64,000 nt of DNA from a virus, in IMG/VR virus record IMGVR_UViG_3300025133_000033. One strand, given 5' to 3'. Positions within the stretch are counted from its first letter, which is position 1, and the number at the start of each line of letters is the position of its first letter. The notes beneath the pieces were generated by a model. It saw only the letters and a program-made list of their open reading frames with translations, did not search any database and was not told the origin of the DNA. Shown here piece by piece: positions 2,878 to 58,704 of this stretch. A program made the translations under genes and the position numbers.

Positions 2878-5800
2878 ATGGCTGTATTAGGTCAAAATTT
2901 ATGTACTCCCGCTAGAATCTATGGGCCTATCCCACAGGTTCTTTTTTGCGGTTGTAGTGTATTAAGCTTTAATGCTCAAGCAGGATGGAATGAGCAGTCT
3001 TCTAGTATGAGCATTGAGCTTATACAAGACACTTGTGCAGGCCCAAGGGTCTGGTGGGATCAGTCTCTAGCTAGACAATCCTCTTCTAGTTTAGCTGATC
3101 CAGGCTTTACTTTTCCAGAGCCAGGAGTAGCGGCTTATTTTCGTGTTGAAGAAGATCCCGATGGAGCTACCGAAGCTGATCGCGGAGGCTTTGAGTATGC
3201 GGGTATAGTTGAAGGATGGACTCAAAAAAACGATGCCAATGGAAATCCTGTCTATACTGTTAAGCTTGTTGATCCTCGCGTAATTATCGAAAATACTCAG
3301 GTAATTGTTAATAATTTTCCTGGCCAAACTTCTGGCGTATGGAACCTAATCAATGCCTATGGGTTTATTGAAAGTCTGGGCGATACCTGCACATCTTCTC
3401 CTGCTCAAGCTATAGGAGGAGTCTCATGGCTTAATACTATTGGCAACCAAGCCAACTCTAGAGGAATGGTCTGGAACGATGTTCGTTGTGCTATCTCGAC
3501 ATTAACAGCAGCAAACAATAGACCTATGGCATCGTTTTTCTATGACGACTGGTGCCGTGACGCTCGCATTCTCTACGTAGGCCCTGATCCAGCAGATGAT
3601 GGATATGGTATTATTGAAAGAGACGCGGTAATTACCGATCCTGTCTTTCAGACTATCCCTAACGCAAACTTAAATGCCTCTTTTTATCTCATAGATATTA
3701 GAGAGATCCCTTTTACTCCTTTGTACTATAGAATCTCTGGGCCTAATATCAGCCTAATGGAGATGATAAGTCAGGTATGTCAGGACGCGGGGTGCGATTA
3801 TTATGTTGAGCTATTACCGTTCCGCAATGCCGGTAATGTATTCAAGATGATAAAAGTCCGTGTTGCTGTGCGTTCTACCCAACCTACCTTGGGGGTTATA
3901 GATGATTTTATAGCCGCTAAGCAAGCCGCTGTTGCCAAAGCCAATGGGGGTATTCTTGCTTATACTAAAGGTGAAGAGATACGGAATGAAAGCACTTCTA
4001 CCTACCTTATAGGTGGAGAGTTGCGTCAGCACTTTGAGGCTTCCGCTTCTAATATGCTACCATTCTGGGGGCTAGATATAAATGGAGACTTGATCCATGC
4101 TACTGTAGCAAACGATGAGTATAGTGTCCGCATGGATTTGTCTCGTTTAAATGTCTCTTTAAATACTCCTTTTGCTGCTCAATTCCAATGGATAACAGAG
4201 AGAGAATTGCGTGCGGCTTTAAGTGATATTGATGCATGGAAAGAAGTAACCCATTTTATAGATGGAGATTTCGCTGTATGGTTAAGGACAATCAAACAAC
4301 ATAAAAGGTTCCGTCAGCAATTATTAATGGATGCGTTAAACGAGAAGCTGCCAGCAGCAGCTATTAGTATTGGCGGGCCTGACGCTAACAGCTTAGACAA
4401 GGCATTTAATGAGGCAGAAGCCAAAGACTTAGAGATGGCATATGAGTTTGTTCGAACATATGCTGATGAGTTCTATGGTAAGCAGTGGTTGGTAAATGCC
4501 ACCTCTTTTGTTTGCTTTACAACAGATCCAGAATCATCAAAGCTAAGGTATTCTCATGAGCCTTCTACTGAGGGGTGCTGGGTTAATGATGATGTAACTA
4601 CAGTGATTGGCTTAACTCATGACAGCACATCTACAGATTTTTTCCGCGATGAGACCGGAAAGTATCAGCCTATTGTTAAGTTCCCTCTTGTCTCAGCACA
4701 GAGAATTGGAGGAGGTGCTTTCTCTTATACGGCAGACCCTTCTAAGCTAGGAGATGATAATTACATAACAGATGGAGTAGGTGAACTATGGGTTAAGGCA
4801 GAGGTAGATGAGCGTTGGGTAATGGGCACTCCTCTTGTTCCAGCAGCCTCTACTATTTCCTTTTTATTAAAAACCAATGCTCCTGTTACCAATAATACTA
4901 GCGATACCAATAATTTTATTGAAGCCTTCGGGGGCCTTGATATTCTATTAGATGATGAGGCTCTTATTAATGCTAATCCATTGATTCAAGATCGAGGACA
5001 GTTTGCTTTAGGTGCTCTCCACTTTGCATTAGCTCCAAGTGCTGCCCTTGCTCCAACATTGAATCATGTTCAGGTGTATGGTGCCTGGGGGGTAGCTGGA
5101 TTGCCAGGGCAGGTTGATCTAGAAACAGACGATGGTTTTGTTCCGTGGGAGTATGGTAGCGATACTATCATGAATCAAGCCGCCTATAACAAGGTGAGCG
5201 ATTCAGTCACTCAAATGCGTAAAGGCGAAAGAGGATCGATTACTGTTGCGGGCCTTCCTAATATTCCTCTTGGTGCTGAGCTGTTTTCAGTAGATTCAGC
5301 AAGCCCTCCTCACTCACAGGGCACCCAGAAATACCTTGGGACCAGAGTTCAGAGCTTATATCAATGTAGTCCAATCATACCTCATATATCTATAGATATG
5401 AATGAATGGACCGGAGAATTTGGTCCGAATGTCACTAATATAACAGTGAATGCTGGAGCGGGTGGCTTTACTACCGAATACCAATTCAGTACATATACTC
5501 CTACTTTTGGTAGATTTAATAAAGATAATGCGGAGAGATTAAAGCAGGTTGGTCAAACTCGTCTAAGCAACATGAGGAATATACGTGCTCAGAATGCATT
5601 GCGTAGGCAAGTAGGAGCCTCTATTGCCCGTGGAAGACAAATCTTATTGAATCAGCTTGGACGCACCGATAGAGTTCCTAAGAGTGCTCATCATACTTTT
5701 GTTGGTAGATATCTTGATGTGGGGCCGGGCTATAGAAACGAGCTAGCTAGTCACGCTGTTCGTGAGCTAACTCTAGGAATCTCAACAGATGCCGTATATG

Positions 5801-17164: not shown

Positions 17165-18781
17165 TTAGGTTAGTTTTTGCACACGCTTTACCAGAAAACT
17201 TCCGCGATTTTGGTCGCGTGATCCACGAAAAAGCAATATGCTGTCTCTTGTTACGTCCTCTCGATGCTTCTCCCAAGCCTCTGAAAACATGGTTACGTTG
17301 TCAAGGGCACAGGTTCCATCGCTTATTTTTAAGAAAGCCATAGTTTGACCCTTGCTTTTACCCTTTTTAATAGTCCATTCTCTCACGTCATTAATTTTTG
17401 CCGCTATCGAGATAGATTGTGAATTAAACCCTTTGATGTATTCACGACAAGAACAATTAGCATCGCTAGTATCATATTCATCAATCTCCGTACAGGTTAA
17501 TTCTACGCTTAAATACTCACGTTCTTGCCTAGCTCTCCACTTAGCACTGTCTACTAGGTCATATGGGGGGTTGTCCAGAGCAGAGATTGTTCCTTTCATT
17601 AGCTCGATGAACCTATCTGTATGAGCAGTACGTCTCTCGTTTGGGATCTTCTTATACAGAATCTCTTCCACACCACCCCTAAAGGTCTTACAGTCAGATG
17701 CCTCTAGGAACTTGTGATCGGAATCTCTAAATTCACGATACATTTCCAGATCATATAGCATCTTGTTCCGATTGATCTTATAGTAATCTAAGGCACCGGC
17801 TAAGATCATGGCCTGGAAAGCATCTCTCTTGATGAATCTGCCTAGTTTCATTAAGAATTGGTCCCATGTAAAACTAGCCAAATCATATTTATTGTTCTTT
17901 ACTACACCACGAAGCTGATCAAAAACCGAGTTTCCCACGTTTTTTATATTAGTGATTCCATAAGTCGGGCAGTTGTCTATCAGCTTAAAAACTCTATTCA
18001 TTTTAATAACACTCGGAGGCATGATATCAATATCCATCATTCGAGCATTATTCACAAGGTCTTGGATTTCCATGTGAGGGTCTTGCTTGCCGTTAGCATG
18101 ACGTAGCCAAGCAGTGAAGAAAGGACGAGGGAAGTGAGCCTTAATATAGGCTGTTAGATATCCTGTGTTGGCATAGCTAAAGGAGTGAGACTTGTTGAAC
18201 GAGTATCTCTGAGACTTCTCAATCCAACTAAAGATCTCCTCTGCTTCTTCCTTGTTGATGATGCCTAGACCTATGGACTTTTTAAGGAACTCTTCCTTAA
18301 TCTTGGCCATGAGTTCTACCTTTTTCTTACCAATAGCCTTGCGAAGTAATTCCGCCTCCTGAAGATTATACCCTGCTATTTGCCGAGCAATACCTAAAGC
18401 TTCCTCCTGATAGATCATAATCCCGTAGGTGCCTTCAAGGATAGGCTCTAAGGCGGGGTGGAGGTATGCTACAGTATCACGGCCACTCTTGCGATCTATA
18501 TAGTGCTGAGTCAAATTTTTCCCATCAACAATTGCCTCTAAACAACCGGGACGAATTATTGCTATAAGATCAGACAACTCTTCCATGTGAGCGGGAGCGG
18601 TCTTTGCTGCCGTACTTTGACCTAGCTGAGACTCTAGTTGGAATACCCCCTTGGTATTACCATCGGAAATCATCTGCCATGTCTTCGGACAATCCAGACG
18701 CAGCTTGGTAAGATCGGGATTTATTACAGGCTTTCCTTTTGAGTTCTCCTCAAACCTACATCCACAGTCGAATTCAATCAT
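17165..18781 (-). CDS. dnaE: DNA polymerase III alpha, C-terminal half (fingers/HhH/OB)
   Basis: GVFQLES, IRPG, TYGIMIYQE, LRKAIGKK, YSFNKSHS. Confidence 0.92.
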   Translation of the reverse strand: MIEFDCGCRFEENSKGKPVINPDLTKLRLDCPKTWQMISDGNTKGVFQLESQLGQSTAAKTAPAHMEELSDLIAIIRPGCLEAIVDGKNLTQHYIDRKSGRDTVAYLHPALEPILEGTYGIMIYQEEALGIARQIAGYNLQEAELLRKAIGKKKVELMAKIKEEFLKKSIGLGIINKEEAEEIFSWIEKSQRYSFNKSHSFSYANTGYLTAYIKAHFPRPFFTAWLRHANGKQDPHMEIQDLVNNARMMDIDIMPPSVIKMNRVFKLIDNCPTYGITNIKNVGNSVFDQLRGVVKNNKYDLASFTWDQFLMKLGRFIKRDAFQAMILAGALDYYKINRNKMLYDLEMYREFRDSDHKFLEASDCKTFRGGVEEILYKKIPNERRTAHTDRFIELMKGTISALDNPPYDLVDSAKWRARQEREYLSVELTCTEIDEYDTSDANCSCREYIKGFNSQSISIAAKINDVREWTIKKGKSKGQTMAFLKISDGTCALDNVTMFSEAWEKHREDVTRDSILLFRGSRDQNRGSFLVKRVQKLT

Positions 18782-18981
18782 TTGAGTCTTTCTTCAACCT
18801 TGATTTCTTGAACTTCTAAAGAAACATAAGACCCATCTCTCCCTGGCCCCTCCTTGTCTTCATCCCCGTCTAGGCTATGAGCGAACAAGTCTAGCTCTTT
18901 CTTAGTTGGTTTCTTCATAACTAAAAAGGGACCATAGTGATCACAGGATTCGCTGTCTGCTGTTATTGACCAAACCTTCAT
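18778..18981 (-). CDS. small hypothetical protein
   Basis: 67 aa with ATGA overlaps on both sides. Confidence 0.55.
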   Translation of the reverse strand: MKVWSITADSESCDHYGPFLVMKKPTKKELDLFAHSLDGDEDKEGPGRDGSYVSLEVQEIKVEERLK

Positions 18982-19664
18982 GCCTTGACTCCTTTAAATG
19001 ACCCTTTAAACTTGGCTACCGAAGCCTGCTTACGATGGAACTTCAAGAACCTAACAAAGATTTCTGACTCTTCGTACACGTCTACGAGAGCATCGTGTGC
19101 TTGACCTTGAGACTCTATCCCGAAGAACTTACGAAGAGTGTCCATCTTGAAATCAGTTGGCTCGTCTAGGCTTTCCATCCACCAAAAGATCTGATCAAAA
19201 ACATCCATCTTAGTAACCTCAGAAAACGGCACCTTAGTCTTATGTTTTGCCGCCAGTCTATCTACAATGACCTTATCGTATCCCCAGATATTATATCCCA
19301 CGGGGATAGGTTGAGGATACCATTGGCCAGGGCGTTTGTCAACTTCGTACTTGGCACAGTAGGTACAGAATTGTTTCCAGGCAGTCTTTTGTGCGACCCC
19401 TCCCTTCCACTTTTCTACTACTTGGTCAAATTCAAGACCCATGTTGTCTGCGTGCCACTGAATAGTTTTACTCCGCTCGTCATCAAAATAGTCCTCGTTG
19501 TCGATCCCTGGTGGACGAATCCATACATTGAAAGAAAACTCTTTCTTAATTTCTAGCGTATCTGGATCAATAGGAACCGCCGCCAGTTGTACGGGGTTAC
19601 ATTCATTAGGATTTTTCCCATCTGTTTCAAAGTCGAAACATAAAAACCATCTATTATTTTTCAT
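18978..19664 (-). CDS. DEDDh 3'-5' exonuclease (DnaQ/epsilon-like)
   Basis: FDFETDG, GYNI..YD, AHDALVD. Confidence 0.85.
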   Translation of the reverse strand: MKNNRWFLCFDFETDGKNPNECNPVQLAAVPIDPDTLEIKKEFSFNVWIRPPGIDNEDYFDDERSKTIQWHADNMGLEFDQVVEKWKGGVAQKTAWKQFCTYCAKYEVDKRPGQWYPQPIPVGYNIWGYDKVIVDRLAAKHKTKVPFSEVTKMDVFDQIFWWMESLDEPTDFKMDTLRKFFGIESQGQAHDALVDVYEESEIFVRFLKFHRKQASVAKFKGSFKGVKA

Positions 19665-19921
19665 ATAACATCCTCGTTTTCTACAAATAGATCTTGGAAT
19701 TTCATAGAGCCATCACAACTACTTATGTGCTTTTCTGTCGTGCCTTCCTCGCGGTCAAAGTTTTTATCGAAAGATTTACACATAGCCCCCCACGCATCCT
19801 CATCAATCGTAACTCTCTTGATGAAGGGGTATTTTTGTGACAACTTTACCATTTCCAATCTGAACTCTGTTATCTTTTGGTCAGTCTGCATCATCTTCTC
19901 CTGCTGTAATTTTAATTGCAT
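19661..19921 (-). CDS. small hypothetical protein
   Basis: 86 aa ORF; true start probably MMQTDQK. Confidence 0.5.
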   Translation of the reverse strand: MQLKLQQEKMMQTDQKITEFRLEMVKLSQKYPFIKRVTIDEDAWGAMCKSFDKNFDREEGTTEKHISSCDGSMKFQDLFVENEDVI

Positions 19922-21773
19922 CCATAGTTTTATCTAACGTAGTAACACCCAAGCAGTCTAGCTTAAGTAGTCCCGCTGCCTCGCAGCTTGGACCTTCAAA
20001 GCCTGCCAGTTGATTGTTCCCCTGCTTGTCAAGGACCATCGGACAGGTATCGCTGATAGGGTTTGCGGAAATAACTACTCCCGCAGCGTGCTTACCAGAG
20101 ATAATCTTCGTACCCTCTAAGCGAATAGCTTGTTCAAATATGCGAGACATTGGCCCCTCAAGCTTTCCGTTCTCACCAATAGAGCACCATCGTTTTAATT
20201 TACTAGAGTTATTCTCCAGTGCCCAAAGGATGACTGAAGAGATTCCATACTCTTCTTTAATATCTCCAAGCTCATCAGCAATCTTGCTTTCGTCTACAAT
20301 GCACTTAGTTATTGCATTCTGTTCATCAAAAGAGATGTTTCCACGAGCCCCCATAACACGTTTAAGAGAAGCTCTCCCCTTTAGTGTTTGGAATGTAATG
20401 ATCTGAGCAACGTTGTCTTCTCCGTATTTTTTACGGATATACTCAACAATCTCACCCCTAGCAGCTTTGGGTACATCGAAGTCAATATCAGGCCACGACA
20501 CTTTACCAGGAGCATTACGTCCAGCGTTATAGAAACGCTCAAAGATTAGGTTATAGGGGATAGGATCAATTTGAGTGATGCCAAGTAGATAAGAAACCAT
20601 GCATCCAGCAGCACTACCACGGCCAGGACCAGTTAGATAGCCTCGACTGCGAGTAAAGTTTAAGATATCATTCACAATCAAGAAGTAACTAGACAGGTTA
20701 ATTCCCGTGAATACATCCAACTCCATATTCACACGGCTACCATACTTATTGAATTCTGTAGACTCAGTATTAATATGGGCCATCTTGTCGTTCCATCCTG
20801 TACGACAGAGATAGCGAAGATACTCATTAGGGTCCATCCCTTTAGGGCAATCAAACCTTGGAGGATCTGGCGGGTGTAGGATATTATAATCCTCGCACAT
20901 ATCCGCGATAACATTGGTATTAGCAAGCTCCTCTTCTGTATGAAACTCTAGCATATCTTCGAAAGAAGGAATATGGTAGTTGTGAGATTTGAAGAAGGTC
21001 TGTAGGGTACGATTAGCCGTTCCCTGTTTTAATTCTCTCTTGACTTGTCCCAAGGTCTTTTTAAAGTTTGTGCAGAGCAAGACCTGTTGATCCTCCGCGT
21101 CTTCCCTTTCGGCATAGTGAGCATCAGGTGTAGCAACACAAGGGATTCCTGTCTTGACGGAAATCTGCCTTAAAGCGTTAGCCACCATTCCCGCGAAGGT
21201 ATTAATCTTGGAGTCTATTAACTGAATCTCAATGAAGAAGTTTCCTTTGCCAAAAACAACCTGTAGGTTCTTAGCACAAGCAATCCCCTTTTTCATCCAG
21301 TCAGGATCAAGTCTTTCTCCATCAGTTATAGCATTCGCCAGTACTGATCCAAGGTGCCCGCTAAAAGATACTAGATTTCCAAAGCTGGCAGTCTTAGCCA
21401 TCATATCAATGTCGATACGTGGCTTATAGTACATATTTTCCTTCCTATTAGCATCAGATACTAAATGCAATAGCTGCTTCCAACCTACCGCATTCTTAGC
21501 TAGGATGACCTGATGGTCTAGCGACCTATTATCTTTGTTCTTTATTTTCACATCCTGCTTTGACACATACATCTCACAACCCAGTATCGGACGAAAATCT
21601 TTATCCTTCATTTTTCCAAAGAAGTCGATAGCACCCGATACCGTACCGTGATCCGTAATAGCTCCAGCCTTCGCCCCGATCTTCTCATAGCGATCAGCCA
21701 TAGCTTCGCAGCTAGACAATCCATCTAGCAGAGAGTATTCGGAGTGACAGTGTAGTGGAGTGTAGTGTTTCAT
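19881..21773 (-). CDS. dnaE: DNA polymerase III alpha, N-terminal half (PHP plus palm)
   Basis: LHCHSEYSLLDG, ITDHG, DAHY, GPGRGSAAG, FERF, PDIDFD, HAAGVVI, GLLKLDCLG. Start placed at MKHYTPL. Confidence 0.92.
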   Translation of the reverse strand: MKHYTPLHCHSEYSLLDGLSSCEAMADRYEKIGAKAGAITDHGTVSGAIDFFGKMKDKDFRPILGCEMYVSKQDVKIKNKDNRSLDHQVILAKNAVGWKQLLHLVSDANRKENMYYKPRIDIDMMAKTASFGNLVSFSGHLGSVLANAITDGERLDPDWMKKGIACAKNLQVVFGKGNFFIEIQLIDSKINTFAGMVANALRQISVKTGIPCVATPDAHYAEREDAEDQQVLLCTNFKKTLGQVKRELKQGTANRTLQTFFKSHNYHIPSFEDMLEFHTEEELANTNVIADMCEDYNILHPPDPPRFDCPKGMDPNEYLRYLCRTGWNDKMAHINTESTEFNKYGSRVNMELDVFTGINLSSYFLIVNDILNFTRSRGYLTGPGRGSAAGCMVSYLLGITQIDPIPYNLIFERFYNAGRNAPGKVSWPDIDFDVPKAARGEIVEYIRKKYGEDNVAQIITFQTLKGRASLKRVMGARGNISFDEQNAITKCIVDESKIADELGDIKEEYGISSVILWALENNSSKLKRWCSIGENGKLEGPMSRIFEQAIRLEGTKIISGKHAAGVVISANPISDTCPMVLDKQGNNQLAGFEGPSCEAAGLLKLDCLGVTTLDKTMDAIKITAGEDDAD

Positions 21774-21905
21774 CCAAACAAGCCTTTCTAAAGCCATATA
21801 CCTATCTCGACCATTTTCCATAAGCCGAAAGGCACAAAAATTACGGCGGTAAAGAACAACCCTTTTATTAGTCCTTCTATACCGCTAAACATTTTACCGT
21901 CCATC

Positions 21906-43008: not shown

Positions 43009-43653
43009 TTACAAGTCCTGTTCCTGCTTATATTTACACCAAAGGGATAGATTATACAGTCTAGCACCAAATAACTTAGATTTTTTAATTATTTCCATGT
43101 GTTCGGGGGTCCACATATACCCATTAAAGATGACGGAAAGGCTAGTTTGTTTCTCTACCATCTTTGCATTAAGTAGGTTATCAAAAAAATCGTCATGATG
43201 ATATCCAAGAGTAGGAAAGACTATCTCTACCCCTAGTTTCTCCAATTGACGAGAGAATGTGATGATATTACTGATATGATGATAGTCTAAAAATACCCTT
43301 AGAGTGGCCCCATAGTCCTTGCACATTGCCAGAGCAGTCTTAACCTCTTCGCTTACCTCAGTGAACTTATTGCGAACGAAATATTGGTTGGGTACGTAGT
43401 CAATGGCTGTGACGTTCGATTTAAGAGCAGTGAGCACAGCATGACTACGGGTCTTGGGGGAGCTATAGCCAGAAGGATAGTCTATGGCCGTAGCTAGGAC
43501 CGTTCCTGCTGGCATATATTCTTTCACTTCGCGAATCAGATGGATAGGTAGGGCTAAGCCCCCTAACCCTTTATCAACGGCCCCAAAGATATGGGTAAGC
43601 TCTTTGCCGTAATCATCTATATATTTATTGTAGTTGCAGTATTCAAAGTACAT
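43009..43653 (-). CDS. deoxyribose-phosphate aldolase (DeoC)-like TIM barrel, probably inactive
   Basis: IDYPSG, AIDYV, LRVFLD align to DeoC; no Lys at the KTSTG position. Confidence 0.55.
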   Translation of the reverse strand: MYFEYCNYNKYIDDYGKELTHIFGAVDKGLGGLALPIHLIREVKEYMPAGTVLATAIDYPSGYSSPKTRSHAVLTALKSNVTAIDYVPNQYFVRNKFTEVSEEVKTALAMCKDYGATLRVFLDYHHISNIITFSRQLEKLGVEIVFPTLGYHHDDFFDNLLNAKMVEKQTSLSVIFNGYMWTPEHMEIIKKSKLFGARLYNLSLWCKYKQEQDL

Positions 43654-44326
43654 GGCTTTTGATTGCTTCTAAGGACTCGTAGTTTTCTGTGCCCCATATG
43701 GCATCAGCAAAACCGTGACTTACAGCGTCCCCGGACGATAGCCACCAATCCTGTTTCTTCTCAAGCTTCTTAGCGATGTGGTTTTTGATTTGTCTTTCGC
43801 TCATTTCCTTATAGACAGCCCCATTTGCACATGCTCCCGCATATATGTTCATCATCTCTTTGCCTGTGATATCTTCCCAGTTTGCCCATGCCTTTGCCAT
43901 TCTGATAGAGAAGTCGGATTGAACATCTGTTGTCCCATCATGGATTAGCCACCAACAATTAGGCATATTTATGCGAAGGTCTGCTGCCTGGGGGATTATG
44001 CTGCCCATAGAAGCAGCTATACCATGCATAATTATAACTACTGGACAAGTGCATGTAGCAATAGCATCAAAGATCATCATACCCTCTGTCCACTCACCAC
44101 CAGTCGAATGCTGATGTACAATGATAGGTTTTTGATCGTCTATACGATCTAGCAAGGTCATATTTTTAACAAAGTTATTAGACATGCGATAATCGACACC
44201 AGGGTCACCATCATTGTCAAAACACGCATGTAAAAAAACTTCTCTTGACTCTAACAGGATATTAAAGCGATGCATCTCATCAACAATATATCCCTTTGAT
44301 ACCCTATCACGATTTTTTAGACTCAT
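43643..44326 (-). CDS. clpP: ClpP-family protease
   Basis: HSTGG, GIAASMGS, LIHDG, DWWLS..AV..GFAD. Confidence 0.85.
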   Translation of the reverse strand: MSLKNRDRVSKGYIVDEMHRFNILLESREVFLHACFDNDGDPGVDYRMSNNFVKNMTLLDRIDDQKPIIVHQHSTGGEWTEGMMIFDAIATCTCPVVIIMHGIAASMGSIIPQAADLRINMPNCWWLIHDGTTDVQSDFSIRMAKAWANWEDITGKEMMNIYAGACANGAVYKEMSERQIKNHIAKKLEKKQDWWLSSGDAVSHGFADAIWGTENYESLEAIKSHVL

Positions 44327-52286: not shown

Positions 52287-52591
52287 TGGTGGAGCCGGGG
52301 GGGATTCGAACCCCCCGTCCCTAATTGTTTTCAATAAAGCGTCTACGTGTTTGTGTCGAGCTAAGCCCTGCACGACCAAGGGGCAGGATAGTTTAATGAC
52401 CTCTTACAGTCCAGCTTCAAAACAGGTATCTAGCTTTGGTTAACAGGGTGCTAGATAACCCCTACTGCTTACGCAGCTAAAGCAAAGTTTTCGTTTGCAA
52501 TTAAATGTTAGTCAATTTTTTAGGTAGCCCTTTGACCAACTACCACACGCAACTTTACATCCGTCCAATAGGTCGAAACCAAGTCGGCCCC
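52287..52591 (-). ncRNA. ssrA: tmRNA
   Basis: 5' GGGGCCG, 3' T-arm plus GGCTCCACCA (G3-U70); tag ORF at 52469..52498 encodes ANENFALAA*. Confidence 0.95.
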
Positions 52592-53633: not shown

Positions 53634-53788
53634 CAATGTTCCTTTGCGTGACAGTTGGCACATAGAACTACACATTTTTCAATTTCTTTGAAGATTTTGG
53701 AAACGCCCCCAACGTCTTGAGGTAGGCCCGTCAGCCTATGATCTGCGTGGGAATCGAACCCACCTATGTCCGTTTATCAACGTTTCAG

Positions 53789-55342: not shown

Positions 55343-55441
55343 TAACGAATACCTAGTCCCCTAAGTATTAAGTCTATCCAACAAATTAAAATATCACAAG
55401 TCCAGATTGCCAATCCTCGCCAATCAGGGTATCTCATTTAG

Positions 55442-55516
55442 TGATGCCGGTGGGGGTCGAACCCACAAACTACAAGATTTTAAGTCTTGTTCCTCTACCA
55501 GTTGGGATACGGCACC
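55442..55516 (-). tRNA. tRNA-Leu(TAA), short variable loop
   Basis: Loop CTTAAAA. Confidence 0.82.
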
Positions 55517-55519
55517 GTG

Positions 55520-55700
55520 TTATTAGCTATACCAGTGTGCTACTACGCCAAAGACCATGCTGCATGTTCGCATGACGCCCCCGCACATGCTTTCCGCGAG
55601 AGTTGGTTGTTACCATACGCCCCCTTCTTTCTACGGAAGGGAATCACTCTTTAAATGATGGCTGCTTCTAAGCCCACATCCTAGTAGTCTTCGCTAATAA
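55520..55700 (-). ncRNA. 23S rRNA GTPase-associated-centre (H42-H44) mimic with a 96-nt insertion
   Basis: AGAC-TACTAGGATGTGGGCTTAGAAGCAGCCATCATTTAAAGAGTG[96 nt]GCGTAGTAGCACACTGGT, closed by TTATTAGC/GCTAATAA. Confidence 0.8.
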
Positions 55701-55787
55701 ATTGTCCCCTGCCCAGAACGTACACGGTCGCGACCCGTCCTAGAGGTTCACCAAGGTCACGGTCGAATTGAACGGCCTTCGGGGTAG

Positions 55788-55860
55788 TGGGCAATGAGGG
55801 ATTCGAACCCCCGACCATTTGGATGTAAGCCAAACACTCTAGCCGCTGAGTTAATCGCCC
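55788..55860 (-). tRNA. tRNA-Val(TAC)
   Basis: Loop CTTACAT. Confidence 0.9.
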
Positions 55861-55926
55861 GCTTTATGTTCTTTTCTATGACAATTAGCACATAGAACTT
55901 CACACTTTTTTATCTCTTCTAGTATT

Positions 55927-56342: not shown

Positions 56343-56711
56343 TTAATGTAGAAGATCAATCCTACCTTTCTCTAGCACTTCTTTCAAAGGAGCTGTCTTG
56401 CCGTTAGTATGGTTCGTGACAATTCCCTTTTTGAAATCGTATGTGCGAATCCTTGGAGTGTTTTTAATCTTATCGTCGCGTCTCGCCTTCTTCTCTGCTG
56501 CCTGCTGCTCGTCTTGTTGTTCTTTTATTTTTTCCTCGATACGCTTAAGAGCTATGCGATGATTCTGCTTGCGGGTACGCTGTTCGTCTATCTCCACCTT
56601 TAGTCCTGTGGGGATATGAACAATCCTACATCCTGTCTCTACCTTATTCTTATTCTGACCACCAGGGCCTTTCCCTTTGTAGTAAGAAATCTTTAGGTCT
56701 TTCTTATTCAT
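56343..56711 (-). CDS. minimal class I release-factor domain protein (GGQ peptidyl-tRNA hydrolase, ArfB/PrfH-like)
   Basis: GPGGQNKNKVETGCRIVHIPTG, R.Q..N...AL, RIRTYDF; no codon-recognition domain. Confidence 0.85.
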   Translation of the reverse strand: MNKKDLKISYYKGKGPGGQNKNKVETGCRIVHIPTGLKVEIDEQRTRKQNHRIALKRIEEKIKEQQDEQQAAEKKARRDDKIKNTPRIRTYDFKKGIVTNHTNGKTAPLKEVLEKGRIDLLH

Positions 56712-58315: not shown

Positions 58316-58618
58316 ATACGGCGGTTTTAATTATCCTGGTATTGAGATAGTTACTTTTTTTGATCTAGGATGATCCCATCTGTCTTTGATCTTTTTTAGC
58401 CTGCCGTTAGGCATCTCTTGAAAAACGATATGACTTGACCATAGCAGCACTTCTTCTTGAGGCTCTAAGGAGTCTTCTTTTTCTAAAAGCAAAACCTACC
58501 ACAACGTGATTAACAGTCACGCTCCCCGACCTACGGCGATTCTCTGGAATAAGGCGGGCTACAGACAGTCTTACGCGATTTAACGCACTGTAGCTGGATT
58601 TTCAGCAACCCGCACAAG

Positions 58619-58704
58619 TGGGCCATTCGGGATTCGAACCCTCTTTCACCTAGCACTGCCGCATGTTACCGGAACAATGTGATCTAGGCTAACGCCAGTG
58701 ACCC
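58619..58704 (-). ncRNA. D-armless tRNA-like element
   Basis: Acceptor GGGTCA/TGGCCC-A, T-loop TTCGAAT, extended CCTAG...CTAGG arm. Confidence 0.45.

What the first reader, a model, noticed from the sequence alone, without database searches (positions are those of the whole stretch)
55520..55700. Free-standing mimic of the 23S rRNA GTPase-associated centre inside the tRNA island
Seen in sequence (- strand): AGAC UACUAG GAUGUGGGCUUAGAAGCAGCCAUCAUUUAAAGAGUG [96 nt, 55549-55644] GCGUAGUAGCAC ACUGGU, closed by an 8-bp UUAUUAGC/GCUAAUAA stem. Established: bacterial 23S H42-H44 reads ...AGACAGCCAGGAUGUUGGCUUAGAAGCAGCCAUCAUUUAAAGAAAGCGUAAUAGCUCACUGGU. It binds uL11 and uL10/L12, contacts translational GTPases and RelA, and is the thiostrepton site. 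No other rRNA sequence flanks this element, and a hairpin-rich insert interrupts the base of H44, so it looks like an evolved small RNA rather than a captured rRNA scrap. Inference: it may be a decoy for L11/L10 or for ribosome-targeting toxins or stringent-response factors, or it may titrate r-protein autoregulation.
Basis: partly seen in the sequence, partly recalled or inferred. Interest (0 to 1): 0.9.

Follow-up and report, generated by a model that had tools for sequence, protein, structure and literature searches.

The report
Phage RNA copying ribosome's GTPase centre
An uncultured large phage encodes, between two of its tRNA genes, a 181-nt non-coding RNA whose two ends rebuild the piece of 23S ribosomal RNA that binds protein uL11 and meets the translation GTPases. 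It belongs to a large phage RNA family that I could not find described, and it probably works off the ribosome as an imitation of that site.

Summary
Window 55520-55700 (- strand) matches the H42-H44 part of Rfam's bacterial 23S model (34.9 bits, E 4.7e-9). It is 51/58 identical to enterobacterial 23S 1051-1108. A 97-nt insert sits between positions 1090 and 1091. No other rRNA lies in the window.

It is not a captured scrap. The same architecture recurs in more than 100 phage contigs and in cultured phages (GAP32, XaC1, Aeromonas 4_4572, Pseudomonas UNO-G1W1). That architecture is: closing helix, H43, junction, GAGU, variable insert, UUUG, GCGUAAnAGCACAC. The closing helix, the H43 base, the 1082:1086 tertiary pair and the base of the insert all covary.

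Of 99 unique members, 43 lie within 50 nt of a tRNA gene, and the nearest tRNA is always on the same strand. No protein gene recurs beside the element, and five carrier genomes have no uL11 gene.

This copy is one of about 3 in 99 that also keep the rRNA-like internal loop of H42, where uL10 binds.

Function is inferred, not shown. The most likely role is an off-ribosome mimic that captures a protein or toxin directed at the GTPase centre. Expression could not be tested.

This scan has noted the same family on other DNA many times (51 earlier notes). Ten literature searches and Rfam 15 found no description of it.

The parts
55520..55700 (-). Whole element: 181-nt free-standing copy of 23S H42-H44 (GTPase-associated centre) with an internal 97-nt insert
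   Evidence: Rfam LSU model 1077-1160, 34.9 bits, E 4.7e-9. Family model R1 scores 102.7 bits over 55519-55696 and finds one copy in the window. The window sequence was one of the 31 used to build R1.
55693..55700 (-). 5' strand of the distal closing stem (UUAUUAGC). It pairs with 55520-55527 (GCUAAUAA).
   Evidence: Read from the sequence. Aligned to the distal H42 stem of the rRNA model.
55686..55692 (-). 5' side of the H42 internal loop (GAAGACU), opposite AUA at 55528-55530. It corresponds to the rRNA loop uuAGACA/CgA, the kink-turn-like uL10 site.
   Evidence: Alignment to the Rfam consensus. Only the window, L122 and, by eye, L075 among 99 unique members keep this loop.
55681..55685 (-). 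Proximal H42, 5' strand (1051-1055, ACUAG). It pairs with 55531-55535 (1104-1108).
   Evidence: The H42 pairs covary across the family.
55655..55680 (-). H43 (1056-1081). Its loop UUAGAAGCA is identical to E. coli. A1067 is at 55669.
   Evidence: Family covariation at 1057:1081 (AU 27, CG 4) and 1058:1080 (UA 15, AU 7, GC 6, others 3).
55646..55654 (-). Junction and 5' strand of the H44 base (1082-1090, UUAAAGAGU)
   Evidence: The 1082:1086 tertiary pair covaries in the family: UA 17, CG 10, AU 3.
55549..55645 (-). 97-nt insert between 1090 and 1091. The basal stem is GAUU (55645-55642) paired with GGUC (55556-55553). Several hairpins follow, then the family-wide UUUG linker (55552-55549).
   Evidence: The five pairs of the basal stem all covary in the family. 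The 3' hairpin GCAUGU...ACAUGC is kept in L004/L008 through a compensatory GU/AC to AU/AU change.
55535..55548 (-). Top and 3' strand of H44 (1091-1104, GCGUAGUAGCACAC). A1095 is at 55544. A1101 (rRNA has U) is at 55538 and pairs with U1090.
   Evidence: All 21 free-standing copies found through the 5' half alone also carry GCACAC.
55441..55516 (-). tRNA-Leu(UAA). It starts 3 nt after the element's closing stem, on the same strand.
   Evidence: ARAGORN and Rfam.
55787..55860 (-). tRNA-Val(UAC), 86 nt upstream of the element on the same strand
   Evidence: ARAGORN and Rfam.
55701..55786 (-). 86-nt spacer between tRNA-Val and the element. It holds a hairpin, is of unknown role, and is absent in the nearest relatives.
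   Evidence: Fold (z-score -0.06 for the whole stretch). In L004/L008 a tRNA-Thr ends 21 nt before the element.

Best explanation
The element is a gene for a stable non-coding RNA of a large phage RNA family.

Shown: its two ends fold into the compact H42-H43-H44 domain of 23S rRNA. A variable domain is inserted at a fixed point in the 5' strand of H44. It lies co-oriented inside a tRNA gene array.

Inferred: it is transcribed with the tRNAs. RNase P cutting at tRNA-Leu, 3 nt downstream, would make its 3' end. The RNA then folds like the isolated 58-nt rRNA domain, which is known to bind uL11 and thiostrepton on its own, and it acts away from the ribosome as an imitation of the GTPase-associated centre.

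The most likely use is interception. Probably loaded with host uL11, it would present the 1067/1095 cleft to a factor that normally docks on or attacks that site. Candidates are a host toxin or defence effector directed at the GTPase centre, or a translational GTPase. This would spare or retune the ribosomes the phage needs. This copy also keeps a version of the H42 loop where uL10 binds, so it may imitate the whole stalk base.
For: Identity with the rRNA domain: E 4.7e-9 against the rRNA model and 51/58 identity, with both exposed loops intact.

Family: 21 of the 22 IMG/VR contigs that hold the 5' 27-mer are free-standing, and all 21 have the insert and the 3' half. Model R1 gave 101 matches over the 100 loci searched. 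It also matched cultured phages GAP32, XaC1, 4_4572 and UNO-G1W1 at 88-105 bits, in unannotated gaps.

Selection on the fold: on a MAFFT alignment of 31 members, 82.4% of cells are paired against 63.8% in shuffles. The covariation score is 0.503 against 0.151 in shuffles (0/500 reach it) and 0.10-0.18 when partners are slid. The tertiary pair 1082:1086 covaries as well, so the three-dimensional GAC fold is under selection and not just the helices.

RNA gene context: 43/99 unique members lie within 50 nt of a tRNA gene, and the nearest tRNA is on the same strand in 58/58 cases. In L004/L008 an intrinsic terminator follows the element.

Retention under divergence: the element is 67% identical to L004, while a neighbouring glycosyltransferase is 38% identical in protein.

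Plausibility of the ligands: the isolated RNA domain forms a conserved complex with L11 (PMC1802607). L10 and L11 bind this same region (PMC1635324). A bacterial toxin, Tre23, ADP-ribosylates exactly 23S 1095-1098 and impairs EF-G GTPase activity (PMC8661411). Three large members carry a sarcin-ricin-type hairpin in the insert, which points to factor docking.
Against: There is no expression or binding evidence.

Every member keeps an insert, which a simple decoy would not need, so the insert may be the working part.

No partner protein gene recurs next to the element: the largest cluster covers 7 of 99 loci. No uL11 gene was found in five carrier genomes.

No anti-phage system that attacks the GAC is known to me. 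Tre23 is an interbacterial toxin.

G1096 in this copy differs from rRNA (A) inside the Tre23 target stretch.

The conservation of the two loops in my sample is partly forced by the search patterns used to collect it.
Confidence: 0.5

Rival explanations
1. Titration of ribosomal proteins. The RNA soaks up free host uL11, and in this copy also uL10(bL12)n. New ribosomes would then lack uL11 (a relaxed, relC-like state with altered RF1/RF2 balance), or rplJL autoregulation would be relieved.
For: The isolated domain binds L11 (PMC1802607). L10 binds the same rRNA region (PMC1635324). This copy keeps a 7-nt/3-nt H42 loop that contains AGAC. Carrier phages have no uL11 gene of their own, so any uL11 bound would be the host's.
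Against: 62 of 99 members replace the uL10 loop with a continuous helix, so uL10 cannot be the family-wide ligand. Stoichiometric titration of an abundant r-protein needs very high RNA levels. It does not explain the universal insert or the sarcin-ricin-type hairpins. That uL11 is not a known autoregulator is from my own knowledge.
Confidence: 0.2
2. Scaffold reading. The GAC fold is only a very stable, nuclease-resistant clamp, perhaps protected by uL11. It presents the variable insert, and the insert is the functional part (an aptamer, a guide or a protein-binding domain).
For: Every one of the 21 copies found through the 5' half alone has an insert at the same point. Insert size runs from about 45 to about 370 nt, with sub-family motifs such as CACCCCGUAACUGGUAAGG in up to 25/99. 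Part of this copy's insert is kept in L004/L008 with a compensatory change.
Against: The inserts share no family-wide sequence, while the GAC part is nearly invariant, including exposed bases (A1067 in 91/99) that a mere clamp would not need. The window's insert folds no better than shuffled sequence (z -0.38).
Confidence: 0.13
3. Processing or stabilising element of the polycistronic tRNA transcript. It would be a structured spacer that guides RNases or protects neighbouring tRNAs, with no ligand of its own.
For: It lies tightly next to tRNA genes, always on the same strand. No promoter or terminator lies between it and its neighbours in the window.
Against: Thirty-three of the 99 loci have no tRNA in the fetched DNA. 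In GAP32 and XaC1 the element lies among protein genes. A spacer would not need near-identity to a ribosomal functional centre or a covarying tertiary pair.
Confidence: 0.05
4. The RNA acts on the ribosome. It would be built into, or dock on, 50S subunits in place of a damaged or cleaved host GAC.
For: Fragmented rRNAs that assemble in trans exist in organelles (PMC3382252, listed). The window also encodes tmRNA, an ArfB-like GGQ protein and ClpP, which together look like a ribosome-rescue set.
Against: H42 in the ribosome is continuous with domain II. The phage RNA closes itself with an unrelated helix and carries a bulky insert. No mechanism is known for exchanging an internal rRNA domain.
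Confidence: 0.04
5. Non-functional relic: a fragment of host 23S rDNA, with an intervening sequence or intron, picked up by the phage.
For: High identity to rRNA.
Against: There is no flanking rRNA. The insert gives no Rfam match, group I intron included, at E up to 10. More than 100 divergent phage copies show compensatory changes and family-specific features that rRNA lacks: A1101, the UUUG linker and the self-closing helix. In the one genome tested, the element differs from the assembly's own 23S at 1056, 1078 and 1101.
Confidence: 0.02

Closest known systems
GTPase-associated centre of bacterial 23S rRNA (H42-H44; E. coli 1051-1108, the 58-nt uL11- and thiostrepton-binding domain)
   Same: 51/58 identical. 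Both hairpin loops are intact, with A1067 and A1095. The junction is the same, and so are the bases I recall as forming the base triples (G1071, C1072, G1091-C1100, C1092-G1099). The 1082:1086 pair covaries. This copy also has an rRNA-like H42 loop.
   Different: It is not part of a 23S gene. It is closed on itself by an unrelated helix and carries a 97-nt domain between 1090 and 1091. It has A1101 (pairing with U1090) where rRNA has U, plus a UUUG linker. It is encoded by a phage among tRNA genes.
The apparently undescribed phage 'GAC-mimic' RNA family seen repeatedly in this scan (e.g. in Cronobacter phage GAP32, Xanthomonas phage XaC1, Aeromonas phage 4_4572, Pseudomonas phage UNO-G1W1)
   Same: All signature features are present, and the position next to tRNA genes is the same.
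   Different: This copy keeps the H42 internal loop (about 3% of members). Its insert type was found elsewhere only on the two contigs behind L004/L008. It has no sarcin-ricin-type hairpin.
rplJ (L10) leader, Rfam RF00557: an mRNA structure that imitates the uL10 site of 23S rRNA for autoregulation
   Same: It is an RNA outside the ribosome that imitates part of the same stalk-base region.
   Different: The leader is a cis-regulatory 5' UTR of rplJL and imitates only the uL10 site. Here there is no rplJ, no Rfam match, a stand-alone gene, and H43/H44 copied almost letter for letter.
Protein-sequestering mimic RNAs (6S RNA, CsrB/RsmZ, bacterial and phage Y RNAs with tRNA-like modules)
   Same: The general logic is the same: a small stable RNA that imitates the natural nucleic-acid partner of a protein. 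Y RNAs also occur in phages (PMC4201824, PMC12135203).
   Different: A different structure is imitated. There is no Ro60/TROVE gene or any other recurrent partner gene beside the element.
Phage tRNA islands as counter-defence (phage tRNAs that replace or outcompete host tRNAs cut by anticodon nucleases; from my own knowledge)
   Same: Same genomic compartment and the same idea: the phage supplies an RNA of the translation apparatus.
   Different: A tRNA works in translation. An rRNA domain cannot be inserted into a ribosome, so it must act by imitation.

Membership tests
Bacterial 23S rRNA gene (Rfam RF02541) | Match reaches the family's gathering score and lies within a full-length LSU rRNA | tested here: not met
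   34.9 bits against a gathering score of 50. Only model positions 1077-1160 match. No other rRNA match in the 64-kb window.
Bacterial 23S rRNA gene (Rfam RF02541) | H42-H44 secondary structure and the conserved loop and junction bases of the GTPase-associated centre | tested here: met
   Full alignment to the model's H42-H44. 51/58 identity to a real 23S.
Phage GAC-mimic RNA family (defined here by model R1 and its signature) | H43 hairpin GGCUUAGAAGCAGCC on a covarying base stem, followed by a U/C/A-UAA-A/G/U junction and GAGU | tested here: met
   Window sequence. Family statistics.
Phage GAC-mimic RNA family (defined here by model R1 and its signature) | Insert between 1090 and 1091 with a paired base, then UUUG, then GCGUARNAGCACAC (A1101) | tested here: met
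   97-nt insert, GAUU/GGUC base, UUUG linker, GCGUAGUAGCACAC. All 21 copies selected through the 5' half alone show the same.
Phage GAC-mimic RNA family (defined here by model R1 and its signature) | Self-closing helix of non-rRNA sequence in place of the rest of H42 | tested here: met
   8-bp UUAUUAGC/GCUAAUAA. H42 pairs covary across the family.
Phage GAC-mimic RNA family (defined here by model R1 and its signature) | Significant score to the family covariance model | tested here: met
   102.7 bits, E 5e-29. Caveat: the window sequence was in the seed alignment. A real 23S scores 51 bits.
Phage GAC-mimic RNA family (defined here by model R1 and its signature) | Expressed as a discrete stable RNA | not testable with these tools
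rplJ/L10 leader (RF00557) | Rfam match and position upstream of rplJL | tested here: not met
   No match even at E up to 10. The neighbours are tRNA genes.
Group I intron or rRNA intervening sequence as the nature of the insert | Match to an intron model, or flanking exons that continue as rRNA | tested here: not met
   No RF00028 match in the window. The flanks are not rRNA. The insert point is fixed across the family, but the insert sequences are unrelated.
Kink-turn 42 / uL10 site of H42 | Asymmetric loop with a 3-nt bulge followed by tandem G.A, A.G pairs (criterion from my own knowledge) | tested here: inconclusive
   The loop GAAGACU/AUA has the right size and the first G.A. The second pair is A.U instead of A.G, as also in L122 and L075. 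Binding of uL10 was not testable.

The most novel reading that the evidence does not exclude
Phages make a free-standing ribonucleoprotein copy of the ribosome's factor-docking site. In this copy that would be the GAC RNA plus host uL11, perhaps with the uL10/bL12 stalk, and in larger relatives a sarcin-ricin loop as well. The particle would act as a lightning rod: it would draw ribosome-directed immune effectors or toxins (ADP-ribosyltransferases of the Tre23 type, stalk-captured nucleases, rogue GTPases) away from the ribosomes that translate phage mRNA. That would be a new class of viral counter-defence based on imitating rRNA.
Probability: 0.3. Interest if true: 0.92.

Novelty: categorically new. 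Interest (0 to 1): 0.8.

Why it matters
Phages are known to carry tRNAs, tmRNA, ribosomal proteins and translation factors. A stand-alone gene that copies a functional centre of ribosomal RNA has not, as far as I could find, been described.

The family is large. It is under clear selection for the three-dimensional fold of the uL11/thiostrepton site. It is present in cultured, tractable phages of Cronobacter, Pectobacterium, Yersinia, Xanthomonas, Aeromonas and Pseudomonas, so its function can be tested directly.

If it is a decoy, it would reveal host defences or toxins aimed at the GTPase-associated centre, or a viral way of retuning translation factors. It would also give a natural minimal 'ribosome in pieces' for structural work. 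This copy adds a point of interest because it extends the imitation to the uL10 side of the stalk base.

Tried and rejected
- **Expression:** There is no evidence either way.
- **Rfam:** nothing but the sub-threshold LSU match covers the element.
- **More rRNA pieces in large relatives:** an E-value scan of L066, L082, L139 and L129 gave only an H43 match in L082.
- **Partner protein:** all-against-all BLASTP of 2270 ORFs within 5 kb of 99 members gave no cluster in more than 7 loci.
- **Pfam Ribosomal_L11:** absent from five carrier genomes.
- **RF-1 domain:** the window has one 640 nt upstream of the element, but only 1 of 5 other carriers has one.
- **Sarcin-ricin-type hairpin:** present in 4 of 99 members (0.56 expected) but not in the window. 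The window's first insert hairpin, CCUUC-C-GUA-GAAA-GAA-GGGGG, only resembles it and is not kept in L004/L008.
- **Relatives with the window's insert type:** the IMG/VR and metagenome scans returned only L004/L008 and L261/L262. The insert fold therefore rests on three sequences.
- **Host tracking:** only one assembly held both an element and 23S pieces. The element there differs from the 23S at 1056, 1078 and 1101. This is too little to conclude anything.
- **Prokaryote genome scan with the 3' 17-mer:** 107 of 120 rows are chance matches and 13 are real members.
- **Literature:** ten searches found no description of the family.
- **Coding reading:** rejected, because no ORF longer than 55 aa overlaps the element.

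Full report
**1. Observation**

On the - strand, window 55700-55520 reads UUAUUAGC GAAGACU ACUAG GAUGUGGGCUUAGAAGCAGCCAUCAUUUAAAGAGU [97 nt] GCGUAGUAGCACAC UGGU AUA GCUAAUAA.

- An E-value scan of Rfam 15 aligns exactly these 181 nt to positions 1077-1160 of the bacterial LSU model (H42-H44). The score is 34.9 bits, E 4.7e-9, with 105 nt where the model has 8.
The differences are at 1051, 1053, 1061, 1089, 1090, 1096 and 1101. The interruption lies between 1090 and 1091.
- At gathering scores the window holds 12 tRNAs (ARAGORN) and a tmRNA, and no other rRNA.
- No ORF above 55 aa overlaps the element.

**2. Setting**

The window is part of an uncultured large phage with about 42% G+C.

- It encodes a split DnaE-type polymerase, ribonucleotide reductase, thymidylate synthase, dUTPase, dCMP deaminase and ClpP.
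- The element lies in a 6-kb island (52.3-58.3 kb) in which all tRNA genes, a tmRNA (tag ANENFALAA) and a few small ORFs are on the - strand. One of these ORFs is a 122-aa RF-1/GGQ-domain protein at 56343-56711.
- tRNA-Val(UAC) ends 86 nt upstream of the element. tRNA-Leu(UAA) begins 3 nt after its closing stem.
- The consensus scan finds no promoter-like or terminator-like site between the element and its neighbours. A strong promoter-like site lies at 58759-58732.
- Co-transcription with the tRNAs, and a 3' end made by RNase P at tRNA-Leu, are therefore plausible. Both are inferred.

**3. It is a member of a large phage RNA family**

- The 27-mer GGCUUAGAAGCAGCCAUCAUUUAAAGA occurs in 22 IMG/VR contigs. 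Only one of these (L020) is a real 23S.
- The other 21 were selected through the 5' half alone. All of them show the same split design: closing helix, H43, junction, GAGU, insert, UUU(G/A), GCGUAAnAGCACAC, closing helix.
- Simple anchors recovered both halves in 116 loci, giving 99 unique cores. The distance from G1062 to C1104 is 88-412 nt, against 43 in rRNA.
- A covariance model (R1) built from 31 short members gave 101 matches over the 100 loci searched. It finds one copy in the window at 102.7 bits (the window was in the seed).
- R1 also scores copies in the unannotated gaps of four cultured phages at 88-105 bits: Cronobacter GAP32, Xanthomonas XaC1, Aeromonas 4_4572 and Pseudomonas UNO-G1W1. 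A real 23S scores 51 bits.
- In the prokaryote genome collection the same 17-mer gave mostly chance matches (107 of 120 rows). The 13 true members are largely on MAG contigs.

**4. The fold is under selection**

I scored the rRNA-derived pairing on a MAFFT alignment that was not fitted to any structure (A1, 31 sequences), using count of structure pairs.

| Measure | Observed | Shuffled columns | Partners slid by 1-3 columns |
|---|---|---|---|
| Cells paired | 82.4% | 63.8% | not compared here |
| Covariation score | 0.503 | 0.151 (0/500 shuffles reach it) | 0.10-0.18 |

- Compensatory changes are seen in 13 of 14 closing-helix pairs.
- They are also seen at 1057:1081 (AU 27, CG 4) and at 1058:1080 (UA 15, AU 7, GC 6, others 3).
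- All five pairs at the base of the insert covary.
- The tertiary pair 1082:1086 covaries (UA 17, CG 10, AU 3). This indicates selection on the compact three-dimensional GAC fold and not only on the hairpins.
- The family differs from rRNA in fixed ways. It has A1101, which makes a Watson-Crick pair with U1090 at the new three-way junction. It has a UUUG linker and a self-closing helix.
- The near-invariance of the two loops in my sample is partly imposed by the search patterns. Each half was nonetheless found intact when selection used only the other half.

**5. What is special about this copy**

- In 62 of 99 members the closing helix is continuous. Only the window, L122 and (by eye) L075 keep an asymmetric internal loop of the rRNA type. 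These loops are GAAGACU/AUA in the window, AAAGACU/AUA in L122 and AAAGACA/UUA in L075, against uuAGACA/CgA in rRNA.
- In the ribosome this loop is the kink-turn-like site where uL10 anchors the bL12 stalk (my knowledge; L10 and L11 share this region according to PMC1635324).
- The phage versions keep the first G.A pair but have A.U where rRNA has A.G. Whether they bind uL10 is open.
- The window's insert type was found elsewhere only on the two contigs behind L004/L008.
- Against those contigs the element is 67% identical overall. The 3' hairpin of the insert is 76% identical, with a compensatory GU/AC to AU/AU change. A neighbouring glycosyltransferase is only 38% identical in protein.
- In L004/L008 a tRNA-Thr ends 21 nt before the element and an intrinsic terminator follows it.

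**6. Clues to function**

- Context: 43 of 99 members are within 50 nt of a tRNA gene, and the nearest tRNA is on the same strand in 58 of 58 cases.
- No protein family recurs beside the element.
- Five carrier genomes have no uL11 gene, so any uL11 bound would be the host's.
- An RF-1 domain protein is present in only 1 of those 5.
- Three of the largest members carry a hairpin of the sarcin-ricin type inside the insert: stem, GUA, C, GNRA, G, GA(A/G), stem. One has 11 nt identical to the 23S loop. The stems differ but stay paired, and the tetraloops differ (GAGA, GGGA, GAAA). With a fourth pattern hit (L129, at a different place) that makes 4 members, against 0.56 expected by chance.
- So some members imitate both halves of the docking site of the translational GTPases. 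The window's copy does not.

Known biochemistry makes an off-ribosome role credible.

- The isolated RNA domain forms a conserved complex with L11 and binds thiostrepton (PMC1802607).
- EF-G binds oligonucleotide copies of this domain and of the sarcin-ricin loop (Munishkin and Wool 1997; from my memory, not checked here).
- A bacterial toxin, Tre23, ADP-ribosylates 23S at 1095-1098 and cripples EF-G GTPase activity (PMC8661411).
[quoted passage not shown] That it is captured by the stalk is from my memory of its original description.

**7. Most likely mechanism and rivals**

I judge it most likely (0.5) that the RNA is released from the tRNA transcript, folds as the GAC, probably carries host uL11, and intercepts something that normally docks on or attacks that site.

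| Reading | Confidence | Main objection or note |
|---|---|---|
| Off-ribosome mimic that intercepts a GAC-directed factor | 0.5 | No expression or binding data |
| Plain titration of uL11/uL10 | 0.2 | The H42 loop is lost in most members |
| GAC as a clamp for a functional insert | 0.13 | Weakened by invariant exposed bases; kept alive by the universal insert |
| Transcript-processing element | 0.05 | |
| Action on the ribosome | 0.04 | |
| Dead rRNA scrap | 0.02 | Contradicted by the covariation and the family-specific features |

**8. Comparison and novelty**

- It works like the GAC of 23S rRNA, but it is not an rRNA gene. It scores below the gathering threshold, has no flanking rRNA and is self-closed.
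- It is not the rplJ leader, an intron or a Y RNA.
- Rfam 15 has no family for it, and ten full-text searches found no description.
- This scan has met the same family many times on other DNA: 51 notes in at least 39 genomes, including members that bear a sarcin-ricin loop. I checked the main claims of those notes independently here. Their agreement is not independent evidence.
- I rate it as a real, apparently undescribed kind of phage RNA. Its structure is established, and its function is still a hypothesis.

Noticed in passing
window 52287-52591 (-), 56343-56711 (-), 43643-44326 (-): The phage carries a 305-nt tmRNA (tag ANENFALAA), a 122-aa RF-1/GGQ-domain protein of ArfB size inside the tRNA island, and a ClpP protease. 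Together these look like a ribosome-rescue set.
   Followed up: partly
L066, L082, L139 (inserts of the largest family members): Sarcin-ricin-loop-type hairpins lie inside the GAC insert (GUA-C-GNRA-G-GA(A/G), with paired but differing stems). With a fourth pattern hit in L129 that is 4 of 99 members, against 0.56 expected. These members seem to copy both halves of the GTPase docking site.
   Followed up: partly
L122 7821-8033 (-); L075 1694-1891 (-): These are the only other members among 99 that keep an rRNA-like H42 internal loop (AAAGACU/AUA and AAAGACA/UUA). All three phage versions have U where rRNA has the second G of the kink-turn.
   Followed up: partly
window 55701-55786 (-): The 86-nt spacer between tRNA-Val and the element holds a roughly 34-nt hairpin closed by CCCC/GGGG. 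It is absent in the nearest relatives, and its role is unknown.
   Followed up: no
window 55866-55918 and 53636-53688: A 53-nt repeat (79% identical) with an internal hairpin (UUCUAUG...CAUAGAA) lies just upstream of tRNA-Val and of tRNA-Gly(UCC). It may be a processing or regulatory signal of the tRNA island.
   Followed up: no
window 58617-58644 and 53748-53767: T-arm-like sequences (GGGATTCGAACCC type) that neither ARAGORN nor Rfam calls as tRNAs. They may be tRNA remnants or unusual tRNAs.
   Followed up: no
inserts of up to 25 of 99 family members (e.g. L015, L025, L026, L045): A shared motif of the type CACCCCGUAACUGGUAAGG lies just before the 3' strand of the insert's basal stem. Its core GGUAAGG is in 25 members and CACCCCG in 17. 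It marks a large sub-family, and the window's copy lacks it.
   Followed up: no
L070, L033, L093, L119, L125, L097, L126, L094, L059: Some members appear to have a second insertion, within the 3' strand of H43 directly after GCAGCCA. In these the GAC would be rebuilt from three pieces.
   Followed up: no
L251 (three model matches at 3989-5395); G005 (two contigs): Some genomes carry two or three copies of the element, and in L251 they are in tandem.
   Followed up: no
window 17165-18781 and 19881-21821 (-): The DnaE-type DNA polymerase is split into two ORFs about 1.1 kb apart, with a 228-aa ORF (18978-19664) between them. This may be an intron, an intein or a homing-endonuclease insertion.
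   Followed up: no
L021 6062-6099 (-); L011 2334-2589; L129 2941-3164: Other RNA elements lie in the tRNA islands of carrier phages: an abiF RNA match and group I introns.
   Followed up: no
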